From positions 1 through 54,510 of the IMG/VR virus record IMGVR_UViG_3300036770_001615: a stretch of 54,510 nt of DNA. One strand, 5' to 3'. A program made the position numbers and the translations under genes. Under the pieces are notes generated by a model that was given only the letters and a program-made list of their open reading frames with translations, did no database searches and was not told the DNA's origin. This stretch comes from a virus (lineage: Duplodnaviria; Caudoviricetes). Positions 1,204-23,333 of this stretch are shown piece after piece; the first letter of the stretch is position 1; each line of letters starts with the position of its first letter.

Positions 1204-1208
1204 AATAT

Positions 1209-1550: not shown

Positions 1551-1556
1551 AAATTT

Positions 1557-1633: not shown

Positions 1634-1634
1634 C

Positions 1635-1663
1635 TTGACATTAATCACGATATCAAGTAGAAT
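1635..1663 (+). promoter_or_regulatory. sigma70 promoter
   Basis: TTGACA-17-TAGAAT. Confidence 0.85.
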
Positions 1664-1672
1664 ACATTTAAT

Positions 1673-1747
1673 TGGGGATTCGCCAAGCGGTAAGGCATCG
1701 GATTTTGATTCCGACATTCCCAGGTTCGATCCCTGGATCCCCAGCCA
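1673..1747 (+). tRNA. tRNA-Gln(TTG)
   Basis: T1:A72, TTTTGAT loop, CCA. Confidence 0.95.
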
Positions 1748-1760
1748 AAGGAGATATATC

Positions 1761-1940
1761 ATGAAAACAGTAACATTTGAAAGTGTATATAATAAAGAGA
1801 AGTTTACCTGTAACGGTAAGTCCTTGCAGGATGTTAGAGTTATTGATGGTATAGAATACCTACGTGTCTTTAAGTTCGGGACACACCGTGAGGTATTAGT
1901 TCGTAAAGATACTCTAAAAAGGGTATCTAACAAACGGTGA
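1761..1940 (+). CDS. Hypothetical protein (59 aa)
   Basis: AAGGAG SD before ATG 1761. Confidence 0.7.
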   Translation: MKTVTFESVYNKEKFTCNGKSLQDVRVIDGIEYLRVFKFGTHREVLVRKDTLKRVSNKR

Positions 1941-1966
1941 TTAAATAAAAGAAGATAGGAGTTATC

Positions 1967-2530
1967 ATGGCTGTTTTGGCATTGGACATCTCAGGAATTC
2001 CTAGGCAATGGATTTCCTTTGATGACGCTATTGTGTATCATGCAAAGGAACTTGTTGCATGGAGTCTTGGAGATGTAGTAGCAAGGTATCGTGGTGGAAT
2101 TCAAAACGACGGTACTGAAAGTTATTTAGAAACCCCAAGCATTATTGCAATTAGAGGTCATGGATTTGACCCTGCGCGGCACAATAGAGTTAGTCTAACC
2201 AATCGAACATTGTTCGGTCGAGACAGGCATGTTTGTGCATACTGCGGAGGTCACTTCCCTAACTATCATCACCTAAGTCGAGACCACATCATGCCTAAAA
2301 GCAAGGGTGGTACCGATACTTGGATGAACGTTGTGACCGCTTGTAAGGAATGCAACGGTAAAAAAGGTAATAAGACATTGAAGGAAGCACGTATGGAACT
2401 GATTTACGTACCCTACGTGCCCAATCATTATGAAAATATGATTCTACAAAACCGCACGATTCTTGCGGATCAAATGGAGTACTTGCTAGCAGGTGTTCCA
2501 AAACATAGTAGAATTTTAAAAATGTCTTGA
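1967..2530 (+). CDS. HNH endonuclease (McrA-like)
   Basis: RDRHVCAYCG..DHIMPKSKGG...NVVTACKECNGKK. Confidence 0.9.
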   Translation: MAVLALDISGIPRQWISFDDAIVYHAKELVAWSLGDVVARYRGGIQNDGTESYLETPSIIAIRGHGFDPARHNRVSLTNRTLFGRDRHVCAYCGGHFPNYHHLSRDHIMPKSKGGTDTWMNVVTACKECNGKKGNKTLKEARMELIYVPYVPNHYENMILQNRTILADQMEYLLAGVPKHSRILKMS

Positions 2531-2570
2531 CAATAAACTATTTATCCTGTATACTACGGGGTAAATAGTT
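2527..2570 (+). promoter_or_regulatory. sigma70 promoter with overlapping hairpin and TAAATA
   Basis: TTGACA-17-TATACT. Inverted repeat 2536-2550/2556-2570. Confidence 0.8.
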
Positions 2571-2579
2571 ATGAATTAT

Positions 2580-2655
<76 letters not shown>

Positions 2656-2666
2656 ATTTAAAATAT

Positions 2667-2742
2667 GCTGGCTTAGCTCAGTTGGTAGAGCATCTGCCTT
2701 GTAAGCAGGAGGTCGTCAGTTCGAATCCGACAGTCAGCACCA
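2667..2742 (+). tRNA. tRNA-Thr(TGT)
   Basis: CTTGTAA loop, CCA. Confidence 0.95.
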
Positions 2743-2766
2743 TACAACACACAGGAGTTACAGTGT

Positions 2767-3003
2767 ATGAAGAAGTTAGTTATTGTAGGATTGTTTGCCA
2801 TTTCTGCTAATGCAATGGCCGTTGATAGAGTTTTAAAGTTTGATACGGATTTAGATGGCAAAGTTTCATACAAGGAACTTACTTTATCATGCGATGTTTC
2901 AAAAAGTTTATTTGACCGAGCAGATAAAGATGGCGATGGGTATTTGACAAACGTAGAAATGCGTACTGCAAAGAATTACCTATTCGTTACTTGCAGTAAG
3001 TAA
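2767..3003 (+). CDS. Secreted EF-hand protein
   Basis: Signal peptide (..ANAMA); Ca-binding loops DTDLDGKVSYKE and DKDGDGYLTNVE. Confidence 0.8.
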   Translation: MKKLVIVGLFAISANAMAVDRVLKFDTDLDGKVSYKELTLSCDVSKSLFDRADKDGDGYLTNVEMRTAKNYLFVTCSK

Positions 3004-3010
3004 GAATTAT

Positions 3011-3087
3011 CTGCCCGTAGCTCAGTTGGATAGAGCAATGGCCTTCTAAGCCATCGGTCGGACGTTCGAATCGTCTCGGGCAGGCCA
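3011..3087 (+). tRNA. tRNA-Arg(TCT)
   Basis: ATGGC-CTTCTAA-GCCAT, CCA. Confidence 0.95.
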
Positions 3088-3097
3088 AATTGGAGAT

Positions 3098-3607
3098 ATG
3101 ATGGATATAACTGATTATGTAATTGAATTACCCTTCTTAAAATATGATAAGCAGGCATTAATTGATTACATGAAAGGTAAGGGTCCTTGGGTCAGTGAAG
3201 GATATGCTAATAAGTATCTACGACCTAAAGACAGTATAGACCTATTTTCAGATATCTATAAACAGATCCCTGAATTTGAAATTGACATTGGAAGAGTATT
3301 TTTTGCTGAATTAGAACCGTTTCAGTTTTTGCATCCACATAAGGATTTATATAGAAAAGCATCTATAAACATTCCTTTGATTGGGGATTTCACAAAAACG
3401 CCGGTTACCTTTTATAGTGAGAAATCTACCAAAAAAGAACACATTTTGTATAAACATTGCTATAATGATGTTGCAACAGTAATTAATACTGAAGTATATC
3501 ATGGAGTAGTAAATACAACGAATGAAATTAGATATATATTTTGTTTGAGTGTATATCCTGATTGGAATACAATTAAACAAGTATATGAAAAGTATAACGG
3601 GGTGTAG
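3098..3607 (+). CDS. Cupin/2OG-Fe(II) oxygenase-like protein
   Basis: HxD (HKD) ... H (YHGV) ... R. The stop lies inside tRNA-Pro. Confidence 0.7.
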   Translation: MMDITDYVIELPFLKYDKQALIDYMKGKGPWVSEGYANKYLRPKDSIDLFSDIYKQIPEFEIDIGRVFFAELEPFQFLHPHKDLYRKASINIPLIGDFTKTPVTFYSEKSTKKEHILYKHCYNDVATVINTEVYHGVVNTTNEIRYIFCLSVYPDWNTIKQVYEKYNGV

Positions 3608-3675
3608 CGCAGTCTGGTTAGCGCATCTGCTTTGGGAGCAGAGGGTCGTGAGTTCGAATCCCACCACCCCGACCA
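3598..3675 (+). tRNA. tRNA-Pro(TGG)
   Basis: TCTGC-TTTGGGA-GCAGA, CCA. Confidence 0.95.
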
Positions 3676-3680
3676 TTATT

Positions 3681-3755
3681 GGAAGTTTAGCTCAGCGGTA
3701 GAGCAACGCCCTTACAAGGCGAAGGTCATAGGTTCAATCCCTATAACTTCCACCA
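3681..3755 (+). tRNA. tRNA-Val(TAC)
   Basis: CTTACAA loop, CCA. Confidence 0.95.
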
Positions 3756-3839
3756 ATTCTTTGATTGTCACAAAAATTTAATACAATTTTTTACAGGTAA
3801 TAATAAATACGAATATTATAATACATAAAAGGTAGCGAC

Positions 3840-4274
3840 ATGTTAAACATTATCAATAGTATCAATGATCCGCTACTAAGTTACATCAAAGATGATCCAG
3901 TGAGACCCGAAATTCCTGTAGAGTTTCGGGTTTCTAATTTTAGATTTGTTGGCGCCTTAGTAGAGGATAAACCACAAGCAATAGTTTGCGTAAGCCTACA
4001 TGACTTTATACCCGAATCAGTAGAAGATTTATCTAGAGAATCAGTATCTCCTGATACAGCAATCTTCTATACGATTTGGAGTTATAAAGCAGGAGCGGCT
4101 AAAGATTTGCTATTCTCTACAGTTAAAGAGATCCAACGTATGTTTCCTAACATCACACGTTTTGTAACACTAAGTCCTAAGACTGAAATGGCAAAACGAT
4201 TCCATTTGCGTAATGGAGCGTCGGTGTTGAAGGAAAATCTCACAACGGTGAATTACGAATATAAAGTCAGTTGA
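3840..4274 (+). CDS. Hypothetical protein, possible GNAT-like fold
   Basis: AIFYTIWSYKAGA...FVTLSP..A..FHLRNGA. TAAATA at 3804. Confidence 0.6.
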   Translation: MLNIINSINDPLLSYIKDDPVRPEIPVEFRVSNFRFVGALVEDKPQAIVCVSLHDFIPESVEDLSRESVSPDTAIFYTIWSYKAGAAKDLLFSTVKEIQRMFPNITRFVTLSPKTEMAKRFHLRNGASVLKENLTTVNYEYKVS

Positions 4275-4299
4275 CAAATATTCCTAGTTCGTATATAAT
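4271..4299 (+). promoter_or_regulatory. Consensus sigma70 promoter
   Basis: TTGACA-17-TATAAT. Confidence 0.9.
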
Positions 4300-4316
4300 A
4301 CATTCTTTCTCGCAGT

Positions 4317-4391
4317 ATCTCGGTGGTGTCAACGGCAGCATGACGGTCTCCAAAACCGCTGGTGGGGGTTCGAATCCCTCCCGGGATGCCA
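4317..4391 (+). tRNA. tRNA-Trp(CCA)
   Basis: CTCCAAA loop, CCA. Confidence 0.93.
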
Positions 4392-4404
4392 AAAACTGAT
4401 TGTA

Positions 4405-4452
4405 AATCAAGTACTTACGAGGCTTGACAAATAATCAGAGTTGTAGTAGAAT
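4405..4452 (+). promoter_or_regulatory. IHF site plus sigma70 promoter
   Basis: AATCAAGTACTTA (WATCAANNNNTTR), then TTGACA-17-TAGAAT. Confidence 0.8.
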
Positions 4453-4461
4453 GCTTATATT

Positions 4462-4491
4462 CGCTGAGAAATCAGCAACGTTCTTTAAAAA
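4462..4491 (+). promoter_or_regulatory. rrn-type boxB-boxA antitermination signal, copy 1
   Basis: GCTGA-GAAA-TCAGC hairpin plus GTTCTTTAAAAA; identical 30 bp at 7654. Confidence 0.75.
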
Positions 4492-4509
4492 CTGAAGTGA
4501 AAATTTTTT

Positions 4510-4596
4510 GCCCGGGTGGTGAAATAGGTAGACACAAGAGACTTAAAATCTCTCGCCCGAAAGGGCGTGCCGGTTCGATTCCGGCCCCGGGCACCA
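4510..4596 (+). tRNA. tRNA-Leu(TAA)
   Basis: CTTAAAA loop, long V arm, CCA. Confidence 0.95.
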
Positions 4597-4743
4597 TATA
4601 AAAGTGTTATCAAGGTATCGTGTATGGACGCATACACTATTCGGGTCCAATCGGCCGGAGACGGATCCTGAGATAACTGCATCGGCTTTGTCAAGTTAGC
4701 TACTTTACGACTAAATTTGCACGATAGCACTTTTATATGGTGT
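4591..4743 (+). ncRNA. Stem-closed RNA cassette B
   Basis: GCACCATATAAAAGTGTTATC / GATAGCACTTTTATATGGTGT. Internal hairpins GTGTATG/CATACAC and GGGTCC/GGATCC. Confidence 0.65.
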
Positions 4744-4751
4744 TATAAAAA

Positions 4752-4845
4752 AAGGGGGAGTGGCGGCTATGTCTCAACGTCATGGTCATCGCCTTTGTGT
4801 TTACTCTTAAACAACAGCATATCCTCATTCGTAGGTGTGCCCCTT
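4752..4845 (+). ncRNA. Possible small structured RNA
   Basis: Two imperfect hairpins (GGCGGCTATG/CATGGTCATCGCC; GCATATCCT/AGGTGTGC) in a GC-richer spacer with no ORF. Confidence 0.35.
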
Positions 4846-4852
4846 ATCAATT

Positions 4853-4929
4853 GCCTCTGTAGCTCAATTGGTTAGAGCAGTGGACTCATAATCCATTGGT
4901 TACAGGTTCGAGTCCTGTCGGAGGCACCA
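4853..4929 (+). tRNA. tRNA(CAT), probably Ile2 (lysidine type)
   Basis: GTGGA-CTCATAA-TCCAT, Ile2-like body; separate Met and fMet genes are present. Confidence 0.85.
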
Positions 4930-4934
4930 TTTTT

Positions 4935-5025
4935 GGAAGTGTGGCAGAGTTGGTTTAATGCACTAGTCTTGAAAACTAGCGATTCAGCAATGGGTCCGTG
5001 AGTTCGAATCTCACCGCTTCCACCA
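4935..5025 (+). tRNA. tRNA-Ser(TGA)
   Basis: CTTGAAA loop, long V arm, CCA. Confidence 0.95.
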
Positions 5026-5031
5026 GTATTA

Positions 5032-5123
5032 GGAGAGGTGCCCGAGAGGCCGAAGGGAGCGGTTTGCTAAACCGTCGACTCACGAAAGTGGGTCCGTGGG
5101 TTCGAATCCCACTCTCTCCACCA
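5032..5123 (+). tRNA. tRNA-Ser(GCT)
   Basis: TTGCTAA loop, long V arm, CCA. Confidence 0.95.
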
Positions 5124-5138
5124 GTTTAAGGAAATGTA

Positions 5139-5507
5139 ATGTTAAAACAATTTTACATTGATGACAGTTATATCACTGATGTTACTGTAAGGACTGAACA
5201 TGATTTTATTAAAGATCGTAGTAATCCTACACACGATGACCTAATAAAAATCCTTAAAGGATATGACAGAGGTCTTAGTATTAGTAACAAAGACCATGAT
5301 GAGTTTACAAAATTGCGTAATCAACTTGAAGAATTGGGTTATATTGTAACTCAGCGTGGTTGGTGGAACGGTGATAGAGTATTGAAGTCATTCAAGTTAA
5401 ATGAGTGGACATTTAGAAAGAATCATAAGTTTCCTAGTGCGGCGGCAATGCGTACAAGTATTGACTGTGCTAGGAAGTTTGGATGGAAAAGTATTAGTAA
5501 TTTATAA
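5139..5507 (+). CDS. Hypothetical protein
   Basis: 122-aa ORF with AAGGA SD between tRNAs. Confidence 0.7.
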   Translation: MLKQFYIDDSYITDVTVRTEHDFIKDRSNPTHDDLIKILKGYDRGLSISNKDHDEFTKLRNQLEELGYIVTQRGWWNGDRVLKSFKLNEWTFRKNHKFPSAAAMRTSIDCARKFGWKSISNL

Positions 5508-5508
5508 T

Positions 5509-5586
5509 GTATCGGTGGCAGAGTGGTCAAATGCAACGGATTGCAAATCCGTAAAGTCGTCAGTTCGAATCTGACTCGGTACTCCA
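5509..5586 (+). tRNA. tRNA-Cys(GCA)
   Basis: TTGCAAA loop, U73, CCA. Confidence 0.95.
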
Positions 5587-5592
5587 AACATT

Positions 5593-5667
5593 GCCTGTTT
5601 AGCTCAGTGGTAGAGCAACGTCTTGATAAGGCGTAGGTCCGTGGATCGTTCCCACGAACAGGCACCA
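5593..5667 (+). tRNA. tRNA-Ile(GAT), atypical T-loop
   Basis: TTGATAA loop, T-loop ATCGTTC, CCA. Confidence 0.9.
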
Positions 5668-5675
5668 AATAAGGC

Positions 5676-5704
5676 TTGACAAATAAATCAAGTTAGTATA
5701 GAAT
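5676..5704 (+). promoter_or_regulatory. sigma70 promoter
   Basis: TTGACA-17-TAGAAT. Confidence 0.85.
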
Positions 5705-5717
5705 ACATGTATTGATT

Positions 5718-5813
5718 AGGAGATATGACATGAAACGAGGTAAACGCTAGTGTCATCTTAGTTCCAATGTACGAACTAAGGTGGCACGTTAAACAAACTT
5801 AGTACAAACATTG
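5718..5813 (+). other. SD + micro-ORF MKRGKR-amber followed by a 15-bp hairpin/pseudoknot
   Basis: AGGAG 5718, ATG 5730, TAG 5748-5750. Stem 5750-5764/5773-5787; loop CAATGT complements ACATTG at 5808-5813. Confidence 0.5.
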
Positions 5814-5888
5814 GGACGTTAGCTCAGTTGGTAGAGCAGTAGACTTTTAATCTATTGGTCGTGGGTTCGAACCCCGCACGTCCTACCA
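5813..5888 (+). tRNA. tRNA-Lys(TTT)
   Basis: GTAGA-CTTTTAA-TCTAT, CCA. Confidence 0.95.
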
Positions 5889-6127
5889 TATTAAAGTATA
5901 TTGAAGGTTACTCACACCGTTAGGGGTGAACGAAGGCTGATTACGAGCCGGATACCCATGAAGCAGGAGGGACTTAGAGTATGGCGAGACACCATTGAGC
6001 CAAAGGGTAAAGTCTAATTTAAACTCCAGGGATGCGACGGGTTAAACAGTGGGGAATAATGAGAAAGCAACACGATATGTGGTGTTGAGTGTTAGCGGTA
6101 CTTCCTTTAGTATATTTTAATATGGTA
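5884..6127 (+). ncRNA. Stem-closed RNA cassette C (~196-nt cargo)
   Basis: 24-bp stem 5884-5907/6104-6127 with 3 G-U pairs; several internal hairpins. Confidence 0.7.
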
Positions 6128-6131
6128 TAAT

Positions 6132-6206
6132 AGTAGAGTAGCATAACGGTAGTGCAACACCTTCATACGGTGCGCTGTGTGGGTTCGACTCCCTCCTCTA
6201 CTACCA
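6132..6206 (+). tRNA. tRNA-Met(CAT), elongator
   Basis: TTCATAC loop, paired 1:72, CCA. Confidence 0.88.
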
Positions 6207-6217
6207 AAAGATTTTTT

Positions 6218-6292
6218 GCTCGGTTCGTCTATTGGTTAGGACGCTGGCCTTTCACGCCGGAAAGAGGGGTTCAATTCCCCTACCGAGTACCA
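6218..6292 (+). tRNA. tRNA-Glu(TTC)
   Basis: CTTTCAC loop, CCA. Confidence 0.95.
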
Positions 6293-6298
6293 AACAAT

Positions 6299-6386
6299 GG
6301 GTGTTGCCCCTGCCGGCGGACTGTAAATCCGTTACTCTGAGAGGTAGGAAGTCGAGTTCGTGGAGCGTTACCATCAACACCCACCA
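6299..6386 (+). tRNA. Non-canonical tRNA-Tyr(GTA): 8-bp acceptor, 4-bp T stem, no D arm
   Basis: GGGTGTTG/CAACACCC plus A-CCA; GCGGA-CTGTAAA-TCCGT; GTGG-AGCGTTA-CCAT. Confidence 0.75.
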
Positions 6387-6438
6387 AACACACAAAAGAG
6401 ATAAATATATCTCTTTTGACACAGAGAGGAAACAGAGT

Positions 6439-6525
6439 ATGGAATTTGTAGGAATGAACATCCTAGCCGTATTAGTTATGTCACTAGTGATTATCATTAG
6501 TGATATAGTTAACTTGCTAGATTAA
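6439..6525 (+). CDS. Small hydrophobic peptide (28 aa)
   Basis: GAGGA SD, single TM segment, TAAATA hairpin upstream. Confidence 0.5.
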   Translation: MEFVGMNILAVLVMSLVIIISDIVNLLD

Positions 6526-6531
6526 GAATAA

Positions 6532-6608
6532 GGCCCGTTAGCGCAGTTGGTTAGCGCACATGCCTGTCACGCATGAGGTCACCGGTTCGAGCCCGGTACG
6601 GGTCGCCA
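6532..6608 (+). tRNA. tRNA-Asp(GTC)
   Basis: CATGC-CTGTCAC-GCATG, CCA. Confidence 0.95.
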
Positions 6609-6681
6609 ATAAAAACTAGTTCTTTACTGTCTATTAGACACTAAATATTAGTGTCTGAAATAAGGCATAAAGGAGAAAACA

Positions 6682-6840
6682 ATGGATATGGACGTTATAG
6701 TTCCCATAGTTATAGTTTTAGTAGTAGCCGGATTCTTCTTTTGGAAGAAAAAAGGCAATAGTGCTGATGCACCAGTTGATGGTGAAAATGTCGGTGGTGG
6801 TGGGAAACCCACTGATACTAAAAATCAGCAATTGAAATAA
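6682..6840 (+). CDS. Small membrane protein (52 aa)
   Basis: AAGGAG SD; MDMDVIVPIVIVLVVAGFFFWKKKG... (not in ORF track). Confidence 0.7.
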   Translation: MDMDVIVPIVIVLVVAGFFFWKKKGNSADAPVDGENVGGGGKPTDTKNQQLK

Positions 6841-6843
6841 GCA

Positions 6844-7048
6844 GACCCCGGTTTACACTTTTACGTTATATAAAGTGGGCAATTGTCGTAGCCATACGGA
6901 CACGGTAAGATTGTTATAGACCGCAAGGCTCACTATATGGGCGACTTGAGACACACAATCGGGCAGAAGCAAAACTGACCTAGATGCAAATGTTGACGGA
7001 CAGGGTAACAACTCAGTTCGGGGCTAAATGGGATTAGTGGCCGAACAT
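6844..7048 (+). ncRNA. Structured RNA (~200 nt), unknown family
   Basis: Non-coding, GC-richer. CCCCGG/TCGGGG ends, CACTTT/AAAGTG, GATTGT/ACAATC, TATAG-ACC-GCAA-GG..CTATA hairpins. Confidence 0.6.
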
Positions 7049-7061
7049 TTTAATATTACAC

Positions 7062-7601
7062 ATGAAACTTAACGACTACATTTTTGTTAGCAAACTTTTT
7101 GATTCACAAGAATGCGATGAAATAATAAACAAAACCAATCAGTATAAATGGCGCCAACATAAATGGAATGCCTCTAATACAAAGGTTAAGTCAGTAGAGG
7201 AAATCGATAACATTCTAGTATGTAATATTGATCCTTTACTTGAAAGTAAAATATCTCCTAAGTTATTGAACGTATTTGGAAAATATAGTATCCTATTTGG
7301 ACCACATAGTGTTCCAATTCAGTTGACTAATCAATGGGATAATATTAGAATAAACAAATATACAGAAGGTGTCGGTATGAGAAATCATATTGATCACGGT
7401 ATAGATAGGGAACATCCTGTACTTACAATCATTGCGTTATTGAATGACGAATTCACAGGTGGTAATACTTTTATCTTAAATGAGGAAGTATTGCTTAAGA
7501 AAGGTGACTGTGTTATCTTTCCTAGTAATTTTATGTATCCACATGAAATTAAACCTGTAGTGAATGGTACAAGATATTCACTAACTACTTGGGCTTATTA
7601 A
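7062..7601 (+). CDS. 2OG-Fe(II) oxygenase (prolyl-4-hydroxylase-like)
   Basis: HIDH...FTGG...FPSNFMYPHEIKPV..GTRYS. Confidence 0.9.
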   Translation: MKLNDYIFVSKLFDSQECDEIINKTNQYKWRQHKWNASNTKVKSVEEIDNILVCNIDPLLESKISPKLLNVFGKYSILFGPHSVPIQLTNQWDNIRINKYTEGVGMRNHIDHGIDREHPVLTIIALLNDEFTGGNTFILNEEVLLKKGDCVIFPSNFMYPHEIKPVVNGTRYSLTTWAY

Positions 7602-7612
7602 CCCAAAACTGT

Positions 7613-7641
7613 TTGACAAAAAATCAAAAGTAATATACAAT
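7613..7641 (+). promoter_or_regulatory. sigma70 promoter of the ncRNA operon
   Basis: TTGACA-17-TACAAT. Confidence 0.85.
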
Positions 7642-7653
7642 ACGTTGTATTGA

Positions 7654-7683
7654 CGCTGAGAAATCAGCAACGTTCTTTAAAAA
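7654..7683 (+). promoter_or_regulatory. rrn-type boxB-boxA signal, copy 2
   Basis: Identical to 4462-4491. Confidence 0.75.
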
Positions 7684-7698
7684 TTATTAGTATAAAGG

Positions 7699-7930
7699 GA
7701 AGTCTTTATACACATGACAATTAAATGTCAGCAAATGAAAGTCACTATTGTTAGTAGCCGGCCAGCCAAAGCAATAGTAAGCAGTGGGGGGCGCAAAACC
7801 CTAGCAAAACCTAGACACACTGGATGAGTAACTGAAGTGACGTACCGAGTCCTGCCCGGGTTTAATTACACAGGTGAATGGTGCTAATAACGATGGTAGC
7901 ACATTTTAGTTGTCAGTTGTATAAAGATTT
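7699..7930 (+). ncRNA. ~230-nt self-closed structured RNA or domain
   Basis: GAAGTCTTTATAC..TGACAATTAAA pairs with TTTAGTTGTCA..GTATAAAGATTTC; internal hairpins. Confidence 0.65.
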
Positions 7931-7934
7931 CAAA

Positions 7935-8805
7935 GATTGGGGGCATAGCCTCGTTAGAATAAGTGTAGCGATACACCCAAAGCAGAATCCGCCTACAGGA
8001 CTGCACCAGCAATGGTTCATCTATGCAAGCCTGCTCACACCCGTGAGGGTGCGATCACTGATAAGACCGGTGGTTGTAACAATGAAGCAAGTGTGTTGGA
8101 AAGAATGTCTGTTTAAGTCCCCGCAAGGGTAAGACAGGCAGACAGAGAGTAACAGGTGGTGCTGACCTCAACACAAAACCAACTTGTCAATTGGTATGAG
8201 AAAGGGTAGTATATATTGTCCGAAGGGTCGCTCCTAAGGGCGTGTATGCAGTATGAGTGGTTAATGGGTATTGATTACGGGTCAATATACATAAATCGCA
8301 AAATACGTCTGAGTAGTCCGCGAGACAAAAGGAACGTGGTGTGTTGTATTATGTAATCCAAAAGATTATGTAGCAACTGAGGCAGCACATCATAGTAGGT
8401 TCAGTTATAGCACAACGGTAGTGCAACTCCATTTATCCAGGAGTCGGCTGAAGGTTCAAATCCTTCTAACGATTATAAAAACGCAAAGTCTGCCTCGGTT
8501 GTATGTGAAAAGCATCTAACTCTCAGGCCGCAAGGTAACTGAGACTGACGTAACTCGCAAGGTGAAATCAGTTTATGCTAGAAGATTCGTAACGGTTTAG
8601 CGACTGTGAATGGCTCGCAAGGTCAACGGGTAATAAAGCGTAGAGTAGCATATAACGTCAAGTCTACTGCATGACTTTAAACTGCGATGCTGGTAATAGA
8701 CGTAGATACCGCAAGGGTTTACGTGGATATCGGAAGAAAGTATTCTCGCAAGGAATACAATAATGTCCGAGGTATTACTGGCTAACGTGTAATCTCAGCG
8801 TTAGC
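7935..8805 (+). ncRNA. Large ornate RNA, GOLLD-like (boundaries approximate)
   Basis: ~870 nt with no credible ORF; dense GNRA-capped hairpins (CGCAAGG x6); terminal GCTAACG-TGTAATCTCAG-CGTTAGC hairpin; phage tRNA-array context. Confidence 0.75.
8401..8473 (+). ncRNA. tRNA-like domain embedded in the GOLLD-like RNA
   Basis: D arm GCAC-AACGGTA-GTGC, ACTCC-(9-nt loop)-GGAGT, T arm GAAGG-TTCAAAT-CCTTC; no CCA. Confidence 0.75.
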
Positions 8806-8806
8806 A

Positions 8807-8872
8807 TTATTCTAAAACACATTCGCAACCACAAGGTAGTGAAATGTACGAGGGGAGTGTGTTTTAGAATAA
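8807..8872 (+). ncRNA. Stem-closed RNA cassette D
   Basis: TTATTCTAAAACACATTC / GAGTGTGTTTTAGAATAA; shares AAAACACATTC/GAGTGTGTTT with cassette A. Confidence 0.6.
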
Positions 8873-8880
8873 AAAGTTTT

Positions 8881-9140
8881 GGTAGTAGCCGTAAGGTGAA
8901 CTACCCGGAGACAAGAAAGAGATTAGGACTGACGAAACTTATTATTGGACTTTTTATCCAATAATGATCAATACGGCAATACGTCTTGAAAAACGTATCG
9001 TGCTTATGTGATCTAGTCTAAACGGTTTTATCTAACCTTCTTGTACTTTGCTGACTAGGAATATGTAGGCCTCTGTGCTTTGTTAAATGTCACTTGCAGG
9101 TTGCATATTGTAATGTTGGTTACTTACTTTTTTGGCTCCG
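8881..9140 (+). ncRNA. Structured RNA with 7-nt periodic repeats
   Basis: Several hairpins; CGGAG/CTCCG closing pair; TG at 9074, 9081, 9088, 9095, 9102, 9109. Confidence 0.6.
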
Positions 9141-9170
9141 TCACTATTCATTAACATAAAAGGTATTAAA

Positions 9171-9734
9171 ATGGAAATCACACTTCGTAAAGCAAATGCA
9201 CTTCAAAACAACATCAACGATATGTTGAAGTCAATTCAGGTTGCTGATTCAGTTAACCTTAACGAGTTCCAAGATGCAGAAGCCGTAATTGGAACTAAAG
9301 CAGTAGAGGCTACAAAACAATTTCAGCGCCAAGTGGCACTCACCAAAGCATTGTACGATATTCGTACAGAAGTGGCTAATGCTAACCACTTCTCACGTAT
9401 CACAACCATGTTGACTCAAGTTGCAGAACTTGAAAAGTTGATTGGTTTCAATCAAAAAATGGCAGAGCGTAAAGTTCGCCTAGAGGCTGGGGTCATTCGT
9501 GGCAAGTTGGACAAAATTCGCACTGAGGGTCGTTCATTGATCTATGATCGTTACAATGAAATAGAAACTGGACTAACCACTGAAGCAGAGGTTCAGTCAT
9601 ACAAGGATACTGTGGCAAAACTTAAGCGTGAGAAGCAGGCTTTGCAGGATCAAATCTTAGAAGCCAACGTTGGCACTAAGGTAAATCTTAGCGAAACTAC
9701 TGCAAATGTATTGCGTACTGAAGGTTTGCTATAA
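9171..9734 (+). CDS. Alpha-helical coiled-coil protein (DIP1984/DUF6847-like architecture)
   Basis: MEITLRKANALQ...IRTEVANAN...LQDQILEANVGTKV. AAGG SD. Family assignment is inference. Confidence 0.65.
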   Translation: MEITLRKANALQNNINDMLKSIQVADSVNLNEFQDAEAVIGTKAVEATKQFQRQVALTKALYDIRTEVANANHFSRITTMLTQVAELEKLIGFNQKMAERKVRLEAGVIRGKLDKIRTEGRSLIYDRYNEIETGLTTEAEVQSYKDTVAKLKREKQALQDQILEANVGTKVNLSETTANVLRTEGLL

Positions 9735-9741
9735 ATAATAT

Positions 9742-9816
9742 CGTGGGGTGGAGAAGAGGAAACTCACCAGTCTCATAAGCTGGAGATCGCAGGTTCGAGT
9801 CCTGCCCCCGCAACCA
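9742..9816 (+). tRNA. tRNA-fMet-like (CAT)
   Basis: C1xA72 mismatch, CTCATAA loop, CCA; lacks the 3 G-C anticodon-stem pairs. Confidence 0.85.
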
Positions 9817-9817
9817 G

Positions 9818-9892
9818 TCCCACGTAGTTCAAAGGATAGAATAAGACACTCCTAAGGTCAAGATATCAGTTCGATTCTGGTCGTGGGAGCCA
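9818..9892 (+). tRNA. tRNA-Arg(CCT), weak anticodon stem
   Basis: TCCCACG/CGTGGGA, CTCCTAA loop, A20; only 3 WC pairs in the anticodon stem. Confidence 0.75.
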
Positions 9893-9900
9893 AAGTATAT

Positions 9901-9978
9901 GCGGGTAGATTGTGGCAAGGGGCGCCCAGCAGTCTTCCAAACTGATAATGCGGAGTTCGACTCTCCCTACCCGCTCCA
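9901..9978 (+). tRNA. tRNA-Gly(TCC), atypical D region
   Basis: GCGGGTA/TACCCGC, U73, CTTCCAA loop; extra nt before the D stem. Confidence 0.8.
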
Positions 9979-9999
9979 TTTCATGTTGATAAATAAAAC

Positions 10000-10614
10000 A
10001 TGGTAAATTATTTTCATAAAATCAATAAGTTTTATATTGATCATAAAAAATTATATGATGAATGGTACAGTGTGGCTACTAAACATGATATGTTTGAGAG
10101 GACACACCACTTTGTATCCCGCAGAACGTTAGACTATTCACCTTCTATTCCCGTATATTATAAATTATTGATTAATTACCCTACATCAATGGATCAAAAC
10201 ATTGATCCAGTATGGTTAGATAGATCGGAAGATAACGACACTGGTAATGATACTACTTTTTCAATCGACAACATCAATATAAATTTTAAAAATTCATATA
10301 CTGAAACTGTAGTAAAACATATAGATAAGTTTATAACGTCGAAATACAAATCATATAAAACAACAGTAGTAAAATATGCGGTGTTAAGACCTAATTCACT
10401 TATTAATACTCATGTAGATAAAAGGTCTATACCTAGATTTTTCTTAACCGTAAACGCCCCTCAGGGATGTTTTATGGAAGTATGTGGTGATAGGCATTCA
10501 TTAAGTGATACGGGAGCATTATTTAAAATGATATGTAATGCACCGCATAGTCCTATTAACGAAAGTGATCAATTTCGTGTTATGATAATTTTTGATGTTG
10601 CTCCCGCAACATAA
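10000..10614 (+). CDS. Asp/Asn beta-hydroxylase-like oxygenase
   Basis: LRPNSLINTHVD...PHSPINESDQFRVMIIFD. Confidence 0.7.
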   Translation: MVNYFHKINKFYIDHKKLYDEWYSVATKHDMFERTHHFVSRRTLDYSPSIPVYYKLLINYPTSMDQNIDPVWLDRSEDNDTGNDTTFSIDNININFKNSYTETVVKHIDKFITSKYKSYKTTVVKYAVLRPNSLINTHVDKRSIPRFFLTVNAPQGCFMEVCGDRHSLSDTGALFKMICNAPHSPINESDQFRVMIIFDVAPAT

Positions 10615-10628
10615 ATATTACAGAATAC

Positions 10629-10704
10629 GGGCCTGTAGCTCAGTTGGGAGAGCGCCAGCTTTGCAAGCTGGATGTCGCAAGTTCGATCCTTGTCAGGTCC
10701 ACCA
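10629..10704 (+). tRNA. tRNA-Ala(TGC), second copy
   Basis: G3:U70, TTTGCAA loop, CCA. Confidence 0.95.
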
Positions 10705-10710
10705 ATTTTT

Positions 10711-11046
10711 ATGAATATTGAATACAGTATTTTAAATGCTTTGTCATTAGTAGAAATTTATAAACAATATTCTATTCCATGGCTTGATATAACGGATGAT
10801 CCATTATTAAACATAAAATCTTTTCCTAAAGATATAAAGTTTCTAGCAATAGAACAACTGGATAAAGTTCAAATGATATATCAGGATAGATTAGATAAAA
10901 CACAAGAGCAATTAATCACAAACATTAGAAAAGAGTTATGTGAACACATAGATTATTGTGATCCAAGAGCAATAAAGTTTGCGATGTTGTCACTGGATAA
11001 TGATTCCGAGTTATATAATATTTTAGAGCAATACAATACGCTATAA
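10711..11046 (+). CDS. Hypothetical protein
   Basis: ATG 10711 after the tRNA. Confidence 0.55.
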   Translation: MNIEYSILNALSLVEIYKQYSIPWLDITDDPLLNIKSFPKDIKFLAIEQLDKVQMIYQDRLDKTQEQLITNIRKELCEHIDYCDPRAIKFAMLSLDNDSELYNILEQYNTL

Positions 11047-11068
11047 ATATTTCTAAAGGAGTTCACAT

Positions 11069-11200
11069 ATGGCAAAAAGCGCAGGATCTAAGATCAATTC
11101 AGTTGTTAAAAGAACAAAGCAAGGCGGCAAAGTAAAGACTAGTAGCCTTAATAAAACTGAAAAACGTAACTTTAAAAAGTATCGAGGTCAAGGTAAGTGA
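11069..11200 (+). CDS. Small basic protein ending KKYRGQGK (43 aa)
   Basis: TATAAATA 11042, AAGGAG SD; motif common in T4-like phages. Confidence 0.7.
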   Translation: MAKSAGSKINSVVKRTKQGGKVKTSSLNKTEKRNFKKYRGQGK

Positions 11201-11397
11201 GCGACGGTGGTAAGGGTAGCAGTCCTCGCCCATTTAGTGTAGATAGAAAAACTTTTGAAAACAATTGGGATGCTATCTTTGCTAAGAAAAAAGAGGAATC
11301 AACAGAACAAAGCGGGTATAATTCAGGGGTAGAATGTTTGCTTGCCAAGCAAAATGTCGTCGGTTCGAATCCGACTACCCGCTCCAATGATAGATGA
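11197..11397 (+). CDS. Small protein (GKGSxPRP..NWDAIF) whose frame runs through tRNA-Gly
   Basis: GTGA overlap with the upstream stop, ATGA overlap with the downstream start. Confidence 0.6.
   Translation: MSDGGKGSSPRPFSVDRKTFENNWDAIFAKKKEESTEQSGYNSGVECLLAKQNVVGSNPTTRSNDR
11312..11386 (+). tRNA. tRNA-Gly(GCC)
   Basis: TTTGC-TTGCCAA-GCAAA, U73, CCA. Confidence 0.95.
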
Positions 11398-21521: not shown

Positions 21522-22037
21522 ATGCACATGAAAGATATTTGCGAAAGTTTTGAATTTAAAATTGTTGGTGGTAGTGAATATCAGTGGCAATGTTACGGGC
21601 CCGATGCCAGATATTTAGATTTTGAATCTGACTATGCGCATGGATCATGTATCTTTGATACAGTGACACAGGAAATTTTTGAGGCTCAGGTACACAGTAA
21701 AGATGAGGGTGTAAGACCTTATCGATGGTTGAATCCTGATTTTAAAGATGATTATCTTGCAGAGTGTGAGGAAAGGTCTATAGATCATACTCAAGCTTGG
21801 GATAGCGTTAAATGGACTGATTTGGAAGTTGTAGAAGATTTCCTAGAAAAGGCTAATGCTATCTTGAAAGGTGATAGTTTTGATGATCGTGTGCAAGTGC
21901 CGCTTGACTTTAATGATGAGGAAATGTTACAATTAGCATTAGAGGCACATAAGCGAGATATGACCATTAACCAGTTTGTAGAAATGGCATTGCAACAGGC
22001 TATTGATAACGCTAAGGAAAAAAATGGAACGGCTTGA
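21522..22037 (+). CDS. Hypothetical protein with C-terminal RHH/HicB-like region
   Basis: ALEAHKRDMTINQFVEMALQQAI. Confidence 0.65.
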   Translation: MHMKDICESFEFKIVGGSEYQWQCYGPDARYLDFESDYAHGSCIFDTVTQEIFEAQVHSKDEGVRPYRWLNPDFKDDYLAECEERSIDHTQAWDSVKWTDLEVVEDFLEKANAILKGDSFDDRVQVPLDFNDEEMLQLALEAHKRDMTINQFVEMALQQAIDNAKEKNGTA

Positions 22038-22353
22038 CATTTTAGCAGAGAATTATAAACCAACTGAAAATTGGACAGATAAAGAATGGAATACCTTTAC
22101 CACTTGGCTTAAGGGTATGCTACAAGTCAACGATGAGGTTAAGGTCACATTCAATAAAAAAGATGGATCGGAACGTGTTATGCGTTGCACACTAAATCCC
22201 AAACTTCTGCCAAAGGTAGAAGTAAAGGAAGGTACCGAAAAGCCTGAGCGAAAAAAGTCAGAGGCTGTAATTGCAGTTTATGATCTGGACGCACAGGGTT
22301 GGCGTAGTTTCACAATTAAATCTGTTACAAGAGTTAATTTTACAATTCAATAA
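22024..22353 (+). CDS. WYL-like SH3 beta-barrel protein
   Basis: VTFNKKDGSERVMRCTL...VYDLDAQGWRSF. Confidence 0.8.
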   Translation: MERLDILAENYKPTENWTDKEWNTFTTWLKGMLQVNDEVKVTFNKKDGSERVMRCTLNPKLLPKVEVKEGTEKPERKKSEAVIAVYDLDAQGWRSFTIKSVTRVNFTIQ

Positions 22354-22366: not shown

Positions 22367-22582
22367 ATGAGCAAGTTGCAACTTTATTGTAGGCCCTATG
22401 TAGTTTTCGACCCTACTAATAAGGATCATAGAAAATGGTTTTCATACTTCAATGAACGTAGAAGTTGGGGACATTGCCCGGTTCGGTTCATCATCGAAGA
22501 TGACCATGGTGATTTGATTACAATGATCCAGCGTAAGTTAATCCAATATTACGTGGATAAAGAGTTTAAGAAAAAGGCTTGA
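22367..22582 (+). CDS. Hypothetical protein
   Basis: TAAATA 22351; ATG 22367. Confidence 0.65.
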   Translation: MSKLQLYCRPYVVFDPTNKDHRKWFSYFNERRSWGHCPVRFIIEDDHGDLITMIQRKLIQYYVDKEFKKKA

Positions 22583-22607
22583 CAATAAATCGGTTTGGGT
22601 ATATACT
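22579..22607 (+). promoter_or_regulatory. Early promoter cassette
   Basis: TTGACA-ATAAATCGGTTTGGGTA-TATACT. Confidence 0.9.
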
Positions 22608-22616
22608 ACTCACATC

Positions 22617-22778
22617 ATGAAAAAAGAAATTCTCTCATTCAAAGTTCCGCGTCCCAAAACACGTGCCCACAAGGCTTTGTTTGACCGCGATCTTCCGTTC
22701 CAGCCCAAGGTTGTGAATCCTAAGAATCAGTATAAGCGCCGGCCCAAGCACCGTAACGGTGACTGGGAGGATGCGTAA
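22617..22778 (+). CDS. ArfA-like small basic protein (53 aa, near-leaderless)
   Basis: HKALFDRDLPFQPKVV..KNQYKRRPKHRNGDWE resembles the ArfA core; not in ORF track. Confidence 0.6.
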   Translation: MKKEILSFKVPRPKTRAHKALFDRDLPFQPKVVNPKNQYKRRPKHRNGDWEDA

Positions 22779-22846
22779 GTTATTGATTTGTTTAGGCTTT
22801 TTTCTTACGAAAAAGGCTTGACAATAAATGGATTTGGGTCTATAAT
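22776..22846 (+). promoter_or_regulatory. IHF site (reverse) plus early promoter cassette
   Basis: TAAGTTATTGATT; TTGACA(22818)-17-TATAAT. Confidence 0.9.
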
Positions 22847-22880
22847 ACATAGTATTGAAACTGATAAACAGGACTGACAA

Positions 22881-23333
22881 ATGAATTGCAACCCTACTCT
22901 GACCGCTGACGAATTCAAGACCCTTCACAATGCCCTGTATGCTTTGGATTGCTTGAATAACGACAAGGTTACCGAGCAAGTTGAAATCATCCGTAATGCC
23001 CTTAAGGGTGCATACGATCAGGAAAACGATGCCTTTGACCAAAAGTACTCACACTACAGTAAGGTCCAAAAGGAATTGGGTCTTGATGCAATTTGGTCAA
23101 TCTATGAGGTTGACAATCTTAGTGACCGTCATACGTTTGAAAACGTGACCCGTGTGGTTTATAAGGATCATTTTGGTGACAGCCCAGTATCGTGCGAAAT
23201 CAACGGTTCTACTTGGGCGGCACTGTTTGTTGCGGCTAATGCTTGCATCCGTGACAGCGGTGATGGTCATCATGTGTTTATTGAGAATTTTAGACAATTT
23301 GGTGACACCCTCATTTTGACTACCGGATCCTAA
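22881..23333 (+). CDS. Hypothetical early protein
   Basis: AGGA SD; ...IRDSGDGHHVFIE. Confidence 0.75.
   Translation: MNCNPTLTADEFKTLHNALYALDCLNNDKVTEQVEIIRNALKGAYDQENDAFDQKYSHYSKVQKELGLDAIWSIYEVDNLSDRHTFENVTRVVYKDHFGDSPVSCEINGSTWAALFVAANACIRDSGDGHHVFIENFRQFGDTLILTTGS

What the first reader, a model, noticed from the sequence alone, without database searches (positions are those of the whole stretch)
22617..22778. Unannotated early ArfA-like ribosome-rescue protein
Seen: a 53-aa ORF starting about 3 nt after the predicted TSS, with ALFDRDLPFQPKVV...YKRRPKHRNGDWE. Established: the E. coli ArfA core is ALLHDPLFRQRVE...SYMRKGKHGNRGNWE, and the active form is C-terminally truncated. Inference: a constitutive ArfA mimic (lacking KGKGS) that rescues, or plugs, ribosomes stalled on cleaved mRNA at the start of infection.
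Basis: partly seen in the sequence, partly recalled or inferred. Interest (0 to 1): 0.7.

Follow-up and report, generated by a model that had tools for sequence, protein, structure and literature searches.

The report
Phage ArfA-like ribosome-rescue mini-protein
A lake phage carries a real, conserved 53-codon gene whose product is a distant relative of the bacterial factor ArfA, which frees ribosomes stuck on broken messages, so the phage probably brings its own always-on version of that factor.

Summary
The ORF at 22617-22778 (+) is real. It has 53 codons and sits 9 nt behind the -10 box of a consensus sigma-70 promoter. Close relatives differ mostly by synonymous changes (15-24 synonymous against 4-5 non-synonymous codons). 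It belongs to a family of about 50-residue basic proteins: 181 clusters at 50% identity, seen here only in viral and metagenome sequence.

The ArfA resemblance holds at profile level:
- A family profile hits only ArfA chains in the PDB.
- hhalign against 28 diverse bacterial ArfAs gives 86-90% probability over 41-44 columns, score 31-34. Column-shuffled controls score at most 17.
- A phage protein annotated as ArfA bridges both profiles.

The RF2-contacting Phe, the R/K-V-E strand, and the Tyr/Arg/Lys-His tail are conserved.

It is not a Pfam ArfA member. It falls below the cut-off, lacks the invariant KGKGS loop, and lacks arfA's non-stop mRNA wiring. It lies nearest Pfam DUF7230.

Best reading (0.55): a constitutive, stop-terminated ArfA-type factor that docks in the empty mRNA channel and recruits a release factor. 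A non-productive plug remains possible. No function was tested.

The same window also encodes a tail-less GGQ hydrolase, 29 tRNAs and a GOLLD RNA.

The parts
22571..22607 (+). Sigma-70-type promoter: AAAAAGGC upstream element, -35 TTGACA (22579-22584), 17-nt spacer, -10 TATACT (22602-22607)
   Evidence: Consensus scan, 11 of 12 positions. The 19-mer AAAAAGGCTTGACAATAAA occurs 7 times in the window at up to 3 mismatches against 0.02 expected. Function as a promoter is inferred.
22614..22616 (+). Inferred 3-nt leader (A-T-C). The transcription start is presumed to be the A 7 nt after the -10 box, giving a near-leaderless mRNA with no Shine-Dalgarno sequence.
   Evidence: Read from the sequence. 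The ATG lies 7-9 nt after a -10 box, with an A at -3, in 13 of 19 loci, which is 6 of 11 distinct lineages. No RNA data exist, so this is inference.
22617..22778 (+). ArfA-like gene: 53 codons plus TAA. The product is basic (15 K+R, 6 D+E).
   Evidence: Conservation. Mostly synonymous divergence.
22662..22700 (+). Codons R16-F28: R-A-H, then the L-F-D ... L-P-F hydrophobic segment. It aligns with ArfA residues 14-25, the short helix that contains A18, plus F25, which contacts RF2.
   Evidence: hhalign mapping. Family conservation out of 150: R16 132, H18 129, L21 146, F22 136, P27 143, F28 137. The AF2 model has its only helix at residues 19-22. ArfA residue roles come from passages of PMC8012679.
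22704..22715 (+). Codons P30-V33. They align with ArfA Q27-E30, the strand that adds onto the RF2 domain II/IV sheet.
   Evidence: hhalign. In the family, position 31 is K or R in 142 of 150, and position 33 is E in 75 and V in 56. The role in ArfA comes from PMC8012679.
22731..22751 (+). Codons Y39-H45: Y-x-R-x-x-K-H, the basic tail with the Lys-His motif. It carries the same residue numbers as in E. coli ArfA.
   Evidence: Out of 150: Y39 134, R41 150, K44 150, H45 130. BLASTP of the window protein against E. coli ArfA aligns exactly this part, 9 of 20 identical, E 2e-4 for the single comparison. The KH motif binds a pocket of the mRNA entry channel in ArfA and BrfA (PMC8012679).

Best explanation
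The gene encodes a divergent, phage-borne relative of the alternative ribosome-rescue factor ArfA.

Proposed mechanism, by analogy with ArfA:
- The basic C-terminal tail (Y39, R41, K44-H45) threads into the mRNA entry channel of a ribosome whose mRNA ends at or near the P site.
- The R/K-V-(E/V) segment and F28 bind a class-I release factor, most likely host RF2.
- The R-A-H/L-F-D helix at the decoding centre helps open that factor, so that peptidyl-tRNA is hydrolysed and the ribosome is freed.

Unlike bacterial arfA, the gene ends with its own stop codon right after the active core and has no internal hairpin or terminator. The peptide should therefore be made whenever the gene is transcribed, not only when tmRNA is overwhelmed. 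Transcription would come from a strong host-type promoter, as an mRNA with a leader of about 3 nt and no Shine-Dalgarno sequence.

Shown here: the gene is real, the family is large, it has ordered profile similarity to ArfA, and the residues that are functional in ArfA are the conserved ones. Inferred: ribosome binding, the release-factor partner, timing, and the benefit to the phage, namely keeping ribosomes available when host or phage nucleases truncate mRNAs.
For: (1) Real gene.
- 14 of 14 candidates are homologous.
- There are 18 viral loci.
- There are 181 clusters at E <= 0.001, 25 of them at <= 1e-10.
- Synonymous/non-synonymous codon differences are 24/4, 18/4 and 15/5.
- It sits in a conserved gene block.

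(2) ArfA relationship.
- The A1 profile against 177,635 PDB sequences gives 4 hits at E <= 10. All are ArfA chains. The best is E 0.029, covering profile 12-51 and ArfA 12-54.
- 4 of 15 close relatives and 17 of 150 family members hit Pfam ArfA, best E 1.8e-4 to 3.1e-4 and 20.6 bits.
- hhalign against 28 diverse ArfAs gives 86.3% (P 4.8e-6, 41 columns) for A2 and 90.4% (P 1.4e-6, 44 columns) for A1.
- A local re-run gave scores of 31.0 and 34.3. 200 column shuffles gave means of 7.9 and 8.9, sd about 2, maxima 16.8 and 16.3. Reversed alignments gave 7.4 and 9.1.

(3) Bridging sequence. The 51-residue protein of Pseudoalteromonas phage J2-1 is annotated ArfA. It scores 43.6 bits on the ArfA profile and 24.4 bits on the phage-family profile. 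E. coli ArfA scores 21.1 bits on the phage-family profile.

(4) The best-conserved family positions (L21, F22, P27, F28, K/R31, Y39, R41, K44, H45) map onto ArfA residues described as RF2- or ribosome-contacting in PMC8012679.

(5) IMG names 3 of 33 listed cluster members 'stalled ribosome alternative rescue factor ArfA'.

(6) No arfA-like wiring was found.
Against: - The window protein itself gets no Pfam, NCBIfam or PDB hit at E <= 10 and only 4.6 bits on my ArfA profile. The link needs profiles or intermediates.
- No family member reaches Pfam's ArfA cut-off of 25.5 bits.
- The K-G-K-G-S loop is invariant in 28 bacterial ArfAs and absent in 150 of 150 family members.
- The position aligned with ArfA A18 is A in the window. 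Across the family it is V 57, A 52, I 13, M 11. A18T inactivates ArfA (PMC8012679), so activation of the release factor may differ.
- More family members match DUF7230 (66 of 150) than ArfA (17 of 150).
- The host is unknown, so it is not known whether it has RF2 of the ArfA-compatible type.
- There is no expression data.
- Both proteins are short and basic. The shuffle control excludes composition as the cause but not convergence.
Confidence: 0.55

Rival explanations
1. Plug or competitor. The peptide occupies the empty mRNA channel of stalled ribosomes but does not productively activate a release factor. It would block tmRNA-SmpB tagging and host ArfA/ArfB. The effect would be either to protect phage nascent chains from ssrA tagging or to contribute to host shut-off.
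For: - The tail with the KH motif is the most invariant part (R41 and K44 in 150 of 150).
- The KGKGS loop is missing.
- The A18-equivalent position is beta-branched V or I in 70 of 150 members. A18T ArfA still binds and recruits RF2 but cannot activate it (PMC8012679).
- The N-terminal 13 residues are variable or absent in short members.
Against: - A pure plug would not need the residues that in ArfA contact RF2 rather than rRNA. F28 is F in 137 and Y in 12 of 150. The K/R-V-E strand is nearly as conserved as the tail.
- The window protein itself has Ala at the A18-equivalent position.
Confidence: 0.2
2. A small basic nucleic-acid- or ribosome-binding protein with another role, for example RNA chaperone, DNA binding or translation modulation. 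Its likeness to ArfA would be convergent.
For: - There is no direct database hit for the window protein.
- The nearest Pfam family is a DUF.
- Structure searches found nothing.
- BrfA and ArfA are said to share the KH motif without common descent (PMC8012679), so such tails can arise independently.
Against: - The similarity is ordered over 41-44 columns and is lost on shuffling or reversal.
- Intermediates score on both profiles.
- The only PDB hits of the profile are ArfA.
Confidence: 0.12
3. Two-part phage rescue system. The peptide is the mRNA-channel sensor for the phage's own 135-residue GGQ-domain hydrolase (window 46244-46651, minus strand). That hydrolase lacks both a decoding domain and an ArfB-type basic tail.
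For: - The window encodes an RF-1 (GGQ) domain protein: 54.3 bits against a cut-off of 35, GGQ motif present, acidic C-terminus.
- The complete 364-kb relative G302 has both an ArfA-like gene and an RF-1-domain gene.
Against: - The two genes do not travel together. 0 of 5 GenBank phages with ArfA-like genes have an RF-1 domain.
- Two near-complete jumbo genomes with the GGQ protein lack the peptide: G306 has no match and G307 only 12 bits, while the positive controls matched.
- The genes lie 24 kb apart on opposite strands.
- ArfA contacts RF2 domains II/IV, which the GGQ protein lacks.
- The GGQ proteins of G000 and G302 are only 32% identical over 65 residues and differ in architecture.
Confidence: 0.05

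Closest known systems
ArfA (YhdL, Pfam PF03889), the RF2-dependent alternative ribosome-rescue factor of E. coli and other Pseudomonadota
   Same: - The size of the active form is about 50-55 residues.
- The motifs come in the same order: a short helix with a small residue followed by L-L/F, then a Phe, then an R/K-V-E strand, then Y-x-R-x-x-K-H. Y39, R41, K44 and H45 even carry the same residue numbers.
- The profile-level similarity is significant.
   Different: - It is below Pfam's cut-off.
- The invariant K-G-K-G-S loop is deleted.
- A conserved R-x-H replaces ArfA's D-N-A.
- There is an extra residue in the D-x-L-P-F segment.
- It has its own stop codon, no hydrophobic C-terminal extension, and no internal hairpin or terminator.
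- It is phage-borne and absent from 185,579 species genomes by the two patterns used. ArfA itself was found in 30 of 301 sampled genomes of its phylum.
Phage proteins annotated as ArfA: Pseudoalteromonas phage J2-1 ATN93434.1 (51 aa) and Citromicrobium phage RXM g10 (PMC8953757)
   Same: They are phage-encoded, short and stop-terminated. The J2-1 protein also lacks KGKGS, has a similar R-V-E...Y-R-R-K-K-K-H tail, and scores on both profiles.
   Different: - J2-1 keeps the ArfA-type N-terminal half and scores 43.6 bits on the ArfA profile, against 4.6 for the window protein.
- RXM g10 keeps a G-R-G-S-Y loop.
- Both are annotations only. The RXM paper gives no experiment in the passages I read.
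Pfam DUF7230 (PF23876), function unknown
   Same: - It is the nearest family by count: 66 of 150 family members match, best E 1.9e-6.
- The nearest ESM Atlas clusters are DUF7230-labelled, score 0.93, with 203 of 256 features shared.
   Different: - The window protein itself does not match it at E <= 10.
- The one bacterial DUF7230 example I saw (L136, 76 aa) lacks the L-F-D/L-P-F segment and scores only 3.8 bits on the family profile.
- No paper mentions DUF7230.
BrfA (Bacillus subtilis) and ArfT (Francisella)
   Same: They are small release-factor-dependent rescue factors. BrfA shares a KH motif in the mRNA channel and adds a strand to RF2 (PMC8012679).
   Different: The review describes them as having very low sequence similarity to ArfA and independent origin. 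ArfT belongs to a family of charged-helix repeat proteins (PMC6514570). Neither was compared by sequence here.

Membership tests
ArfA (Pfam PF03889) | Score at or above the curated Pfam cut-off (25.5 bits) | tested here: not met
   The window protein has no hit at E <= 10. The best family member reaches 20.6 bits. 17 of 150 members match, all sub-threshold, with best E 1.8e-4.
ArfA (Pfam PF03889) | Ordered similarity to the ArfA core at profile level | tested here: met
   hhalign gives 86-90% probability with P 1.4e-6 to 4.8e-6. Shuffled controls score at most 16.8 against real scores of 31-34. The only PDB hits of the profile are ArfA.
ArfA (Pfam PF03889) | K-G-K-G-S loop (E. coli residues 34-38) | tested here: not met
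   The loop is invariant in 28 of 28 bacterial ArfAs. It is present in 0 of 150 family members and aligned as a 3-residue deletion.
ArfA (Pfam PF03889) | Phe contacting RF2 (F25) followed by the strand Q27-E30 | tested here: met
   F28 is F in 137 and Y in 12 of 150. Position 31 is K/R in 142 of 150. Position 33 is E in 75 and V in 56. This was tested at sequence level only.
ArfA (Pfam PF03889) | Basic C-terminal tail with Lys-His motif for the mRNA entry channel | tested here: met
   R41 and K44 are present in 150 of 150 and H45 in 130 of 150. BLASTP aligns this part directly to E. coli ArfA.
ArfA (Pfam PF03889) | Small residue at the A18 position, needed to activate RF2 | tested here: inconclusive
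   The window has Ala (A20). Across the family the position is V 57, A 52, I 13, M 11, E 9 of 150.
ArfA (Pfam PF03889) | Expression from a truncated, stop-less mRNA (internal hairpin or terminator; dispensable hydrophobic C-terminus) | tested here: not met
   The window ORF has no terminator-like site. None lies before the stop in 16 of 18 relatives; L014 and L015 have one weak site at codon level. There are 0 conserved pairs in 14 aligned 3' ends. The tail after H45 has a median of 8 residues.
ArfA (Pfam PF03889) | RF2-dependent peptidyl-tRNA hydrolysis on non-stop ribosomes | not testable with these tools
   This needs a biochemical assay.
DUF7230 (Pfam PF23876) | Score at or above the curated cut-off (27 bits) | tested here: not met
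   The window protein has no hit at E <= 10. 66 of 150 relatives match at E <= 1, best 1.9e-6. The nearest Atlas clusters carry DUF7230 on 10-29% of their members.
ArfB (GGQ-domain rescue hydrolase) | RF-1/GGQ catalytic domain in the same protein | tested here: not met
   The 53-residue protein has no Pfam domain. The only RF-1 domain in the window is a separate gene at 46244-46651.

The most novel reading that the evidence does not exclude
The peptide is a counter-defence and take-over tool. It would be an always-on ArfA variant, made within moments of infection from a near-leaderless transcript. It would keep ribosomes free when host RNA-cleaving defences, or the phage's own attack on host mRNA, create stop-less messages, and it would outcompete tmRNA tagging. 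In this lineage it would act together with the phage's tail-less GGQ hydrolase as a rescue kit independent of host release factors.
Probability: 0.12. Interest if true: 0.8.

Novelty: new variant of a known kind. Interest (0 to 1): 0.58.

Why it matters
Ribosome rescue is treated as a bacterial housekeeping function. In my searches, phage ArfA genes appear in print only as annotation lines (RXM paper).

A family of at least 181 sequence clusters of stop-terminated ArfA-like peptides was seen here only in viral and metagenome sequence. That would mean many phages deliberately manipulate the fate of ribosomes stalled on broken mRNA. It would also give a testable function to part of Pfam DUF7230.

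The family is a natural experiment on what ArfA needs. It has no KGKGS loop, a variable N-terminus, and V or I tolerated at the A18 position. It also removes the trans-translation-coupled control that defines bacterial arfA.

If the peptide blocks rescue rather than performing it, it would be a natural peptide inhibitor of trans-translation.

Tried and rejected
- Direct searches with the window protein found nothing. This covers Pfam, NCBIfam and PDB, and GenBank phages by megablast, blastn and tblastn. PHROGs gave only E 0.08-0.16.
- tblastn of P0020 against phages found no match.
- Complex prediction of E. coli RF2 with the family alignment gave no verdict: score 0.31 against a mark of 0.32, and the controls were not run. 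It is evidence neither way.
- The AF2 model has pLDDT 83.3, pTM 0.32 and one 4-residue helix. It gave 0 Foldseek PDB matches at E <= 10 and 0 VIA-align matches at Z >= 2 among 48,161 chains. That is expected for an extended peptide.
- No RNA holder was listed among sequencing runs.
With A1 it gave 53 pattern matches and 0 relatives.
- An ArfA alignment restricted to Enterobacteriaceae (A3) gave only 77-79% hhalign probability. I replaced it with the diverse set A4.
- The ORF RNA folds somewhat better than shuffles (z -3.09), but nothing is conserved. I rejected an arfA-like hairpin.
- The overlapping minus-strand ORF 22635-23042 is rejected as coding, because divergence is synonymous in the plus frame.
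- Earlier notes of this scan came up empty by place and by sequence.

Full report
**Observation**

The window is an IMG/VR virus record of 54,510 bases. CheckV rates it 14% complete and its G+C is 37.5%. DNA nearly identical to it occurs in freshwater and subsurface metagenome runs.

ATG is at 22617, TAA ends at 22778, and the product has 53 residues. The protein has 15 Lys+Arg against 6 Asp+Glu.

Immediately upstream is a sigma-70-type site: TTGACA, 17 nt, then TATACT, ending at 22607 and matching 11 of 12 positions. It is preceded by AAAAAGGC. The 19-mer that spans this element has 7 matches in the window at up to 3 mismatches, where 0.02 are expected.

The ATG begins 9 nt after the -10 box and there is no Shine-Dalgarno sequence. 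A start at the usual distance would be the A at 22614, which leaves a 3-nt leader. This is inference. No RNA run holds the sequence.

**It is a gene**

- A word-indexed search found 14 homologues among 14 candidates. They are 52-77 residues long and 53-91% identical.
- A profile of these sequences, searched against 1.84 billion cluster representatives, found 181 proteins at E <= 0.001 and 25 at E <= 1e-10. The 150 best listed are all 35-123 residues long.
- Eighteen viral contigs carry a relative, among them a 364-kb contig with terminal repeats.
- Against three close relatives, the codons that differ are synonymous 24, 18 and 15 times and non-synonymous 4, 4 and 5 times.
- The gene sits in a conserved block. 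A 193-residue protein, a WYL_2-domain protein, and proteins of 101, 138 and 74 residues flank it in most of the 18 loci.
- A pattern scan of one genome for each of 185,579 prokaryote species found no relative: 53 pattern matches, 0 confirmed. This close family was therefore seen only in viral and metagenome sequence.

**Relationship to ArfA**

The window protein alone hits nothing in Pfam, NCBIfam or the PDB at E <= 10. With profiles the picture changes.

- The 15-sequence profile, searched against 177,635 distinct PDB sequences, returns four hits at E <= 10. All four are ArfA chains. The best has E 0.029 and aligns profile 12-51 to ArfA 12-54.
- Four of the 15 members, and 17 of 150 members of the wider family, hit Pfam ArfA below threshold. 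The best is 20.6 bits against a cut-off of 25.5.
- I fetched arfA from E. coli K-12. I then fetched ArfA genes from 30 of 301 sampled genomes of the same phylum and built a 28-sequence alignment.
- hhalign of the phage family against this alignment gives 86.3% probability (P 4.8e-6, 41 columns). The close family gives 90.4% (P 1.4e-6, 44 columns), pairing window residues 9-52 with ArfA 7-53.
- As a control I shuffled the columns of the ArfA alignment 200 times. Scores fell from 31.0 and 34.3 to means of 7.9 and 8.9, with maxima of 16.8 and 16.3. Reversed alignments scored 7.4 and 9.1. Shared basic composition therefore does not explain the match.
- Intermediates exist. The 51-residue protein of Pseudoalteromonas phage J2-1 is annotated ArfA. 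It scores 43.6 bits on the ArfA profile and 24.4 bits on the phage-family profile. E. coli ArfA scores 21.1 bits on the phage-family profile.
- IMG's pipeline already names 3 of 33 listed cluster members as ArfA.

**What is conserved**

Conservation among the 150 family members:

| Position | Count of 150 |
|---|---|
| R41 | 150 |
| K44 | 150 |
| L21 | 146 |
| P27 | 143 |
| K/R31 | 142 |
| F28 | 137 |
| F22 | 136 |
| Y39 | 134 |
| R16 | 132 |
| H45 | 130 |
| H18 | 129 |

By the hhalign mapping these positions fall on the following ArfA features:
- the short helix that contains A18;
- F25;
- the Q27-E30 strand;
- the Tyr/Arg/Lys-His tail.

Passages of the review PMC8012679 assign roles to these features:
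- F25 and the Q27-E30 strand bind RF2 domains II/IV.
- Residues 15-24 form a helix at the decoding centre.
- A18T blocks RF2 activation.
- The basic C-terminus, with its KH motif, sits in the mRNA entry channel.
- The active form lacks the last 17-18 residues.

An AlphaFold2 model built with the family alignment is an extended chain whose only helix covers residues 19-22. Its pLDDT is 83.3 and pTM 0.32. This is compatible with ArfA but is not evidence by itself.

**What differs**

- The K-G-K-G-S loop is invariant in the 28 bacterial ArfAs and absent from all 150 family members, where it aligns as a three-residue deletion.
- The family has its own R-x-H signature. The residue aligned with A18 is Ala in the window. 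Across the family it is V 57, A 52, I 13, M 11.
- More members match Pfam DUF7230 (66 of 150, best E 1.9e-6) than ArfA. The nearest ESM Atlas clusters are DUF7230-labelled, at score 0.93. The window protein itself does not match DUF7230. No paper mentions that DUF.
- The regulatory hallmark of arfA is missing. The ORF has its own stop eight residues after the KH motif. There is no terminator-like site in the window ORF or before the stop in 16 of 18 relatives. Fourteen aligned 3' ends have no conserved base pair.
- Earlier notes of this scan report terminators inside the frame for other clades of ArfA-like phage peptides. I did not find that layout in this lineage.

**Expression signal**

In 13 of 19 loci, which is 6 of 11 distinct lineages, the ATG lies 7-9 nt after the -10 box of a consensus promoter and an A stands at -3. 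The other five lineages have leaders of 22-41 nt without a clear Shine-Dalgarno sequence.

Neighbouring genes behind equally good promoters have leaders of about 30 nt with AGGA- or GGAG-like sites. The near-leaderless layout is therefore specific to this gene.

**Mechanism and rivals**

The best-supported reading (0.55) is an ArfA-type factor. Its tail senses an empty mRNA channel, and its middle part recruits a class-I release factor, most likely host RF2. It would be made constitutively.

The main rival (0.20) is a non-productive plug that blocks tmRNA-SmpB and host rescue factors.
- For it: the missing KGKGS loop and the V or I at the A18 position.
- Against it: the RF2-contacting Phe and strand are as conserved as the tail.

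Convergent similarity in a protein with an unrelated role gets 0.12.

A co-folding test with E. coli RF2 gave no verdict and counts neither way.

**Context found on the way**

The window also encodes a 135-residue protein with an RF-1 (GGQ) domain at 46244-46651 on the minus strand.
- It scores 54.3 bits against a cut-off of 35, has the GGQ motif, and ends in an acidic C-terminus rather than an ArfB-type basic tail.
- Its closest solved relatives are PrfH and RF2 domain 3.
- It has relatives on 46 viral contigs.

This suggested a two-part system, but the two genes do not co-occur.
- 0 of 5 GenBank phages with ArfA-like genes have an RF-1 domain.
- Two near-complete jumbo genomes with the GGQ protein lack the peptide, while the positive controls matched.

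I keep that idea at 0.05. The window also holds 29 tRNA genes and a GOLLD RNA. Together these show a phage heavily invested in translation.

**Novelty**

Canonical-type ArfA homologues occur in several GenBank phages. One search matched 12 records, 9 of them phage genomes at 42-63% identity, and two of those are annotated ArfA.

One paper lists such a gene without experiments (PMC8953757, passages read). My searches found no functional study of a phage ArfA, and the rescue-factor survey PMC6514570 has no occurrence of 'phage'. Its supplements were closed.

This is therefore a new variant of a known kind. It is a large, unnamed, KGKGS-less, stop-terminated branch of the ArfA-like peptides, seen here only in viral and metagenome sequence. 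Notes of this scan show the theme recurs in many phage windows. Those notes are leads, not support.

Noticed in passing
window 46244-46651 (-): A 135-residue stand-alone GGQ (RF-1 domain) protein. It scores 54.3 bits against a cut-off of 35, lacks a decoding domain, and ends in an acidic C-terminus instead of an ArfB-type basic tail. It is closest to PrfH and RF2 domain 3 in the PDB, and has relatives on 46 viral contigs, including ones of 379-400 kb.
   Followed up: partly
window 8336-8801 (+): A full-length GOLLD RNA (Rfam RF02032, 213.6 bits against a gathering score of 150). A tRNA-Ile(tat) at 8401-8474 lies inside it, and it sits within the tRNA array.
   Followed up: no
window 370-11386 (+): An array of 29 tRNA genes, all on the plus strand.
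   Followed up: no
window 22571, 22810, 23329, 23891 (+) and three more sites: A repeated consensus promoter with the upstream element AAAAAGGC. The 19-mer AAAAAGGCTTGACAATAAA has 7 matches against 0.02 expected. Four of them head successive small genes around the ArfA-like gene.
   Followed up: partly
window 22003-22353 (+): A WYL_2 (Sm-like SH3 barrel) domain protein, 52.8 bits, lies two genes upstream. It is conserved next to the ArfA-like gene in most related loci.
   Followed up: no
L137:1153-1269 (Pseudomonas phage vB_PpuM-NoPa) and L138:1153-1269 (phage XD2): A 38-codon ORF that keeps the strand and KH tail of the family but lacks the hydrophobic helix. It scores 19.6-21.7 bits on the family profiles. 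It is unannotated in NoPa and 'hypothetical protein' in XD2.
   Followed up: partly
L025:1417-1641 (Salmonella phage Arash gp99c); L024:1486-1638 (Pseudomonas phage pf16): Arash gp99c is a clear ArfA homologue (68.7 bits on my ArfA profile, with KGKGSY) but is named 'ribosomal protein L2'. pf16 has an ArfA-like ORF (65.9 bits) that is not annotated. An opposite-strand gene, pf16_199, is annotated over part of it.
   Followed up: partly
Several end in ...L-L-A-A or ...F-L-A-A, which resembles an ssrA-like degradation tail encoded in the gene itself.
   Followed up: no
L136:1480-1710: The only DUF7230 match in 301 sampled bacterial genomes is a 76-codon ORF lying between two larger genes. Judged from their sequences by eye only, these look like a Fic-like gene and a restriction-endonuclease-like gene. 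That would be a defence-island-like setting.
   Followed up: no
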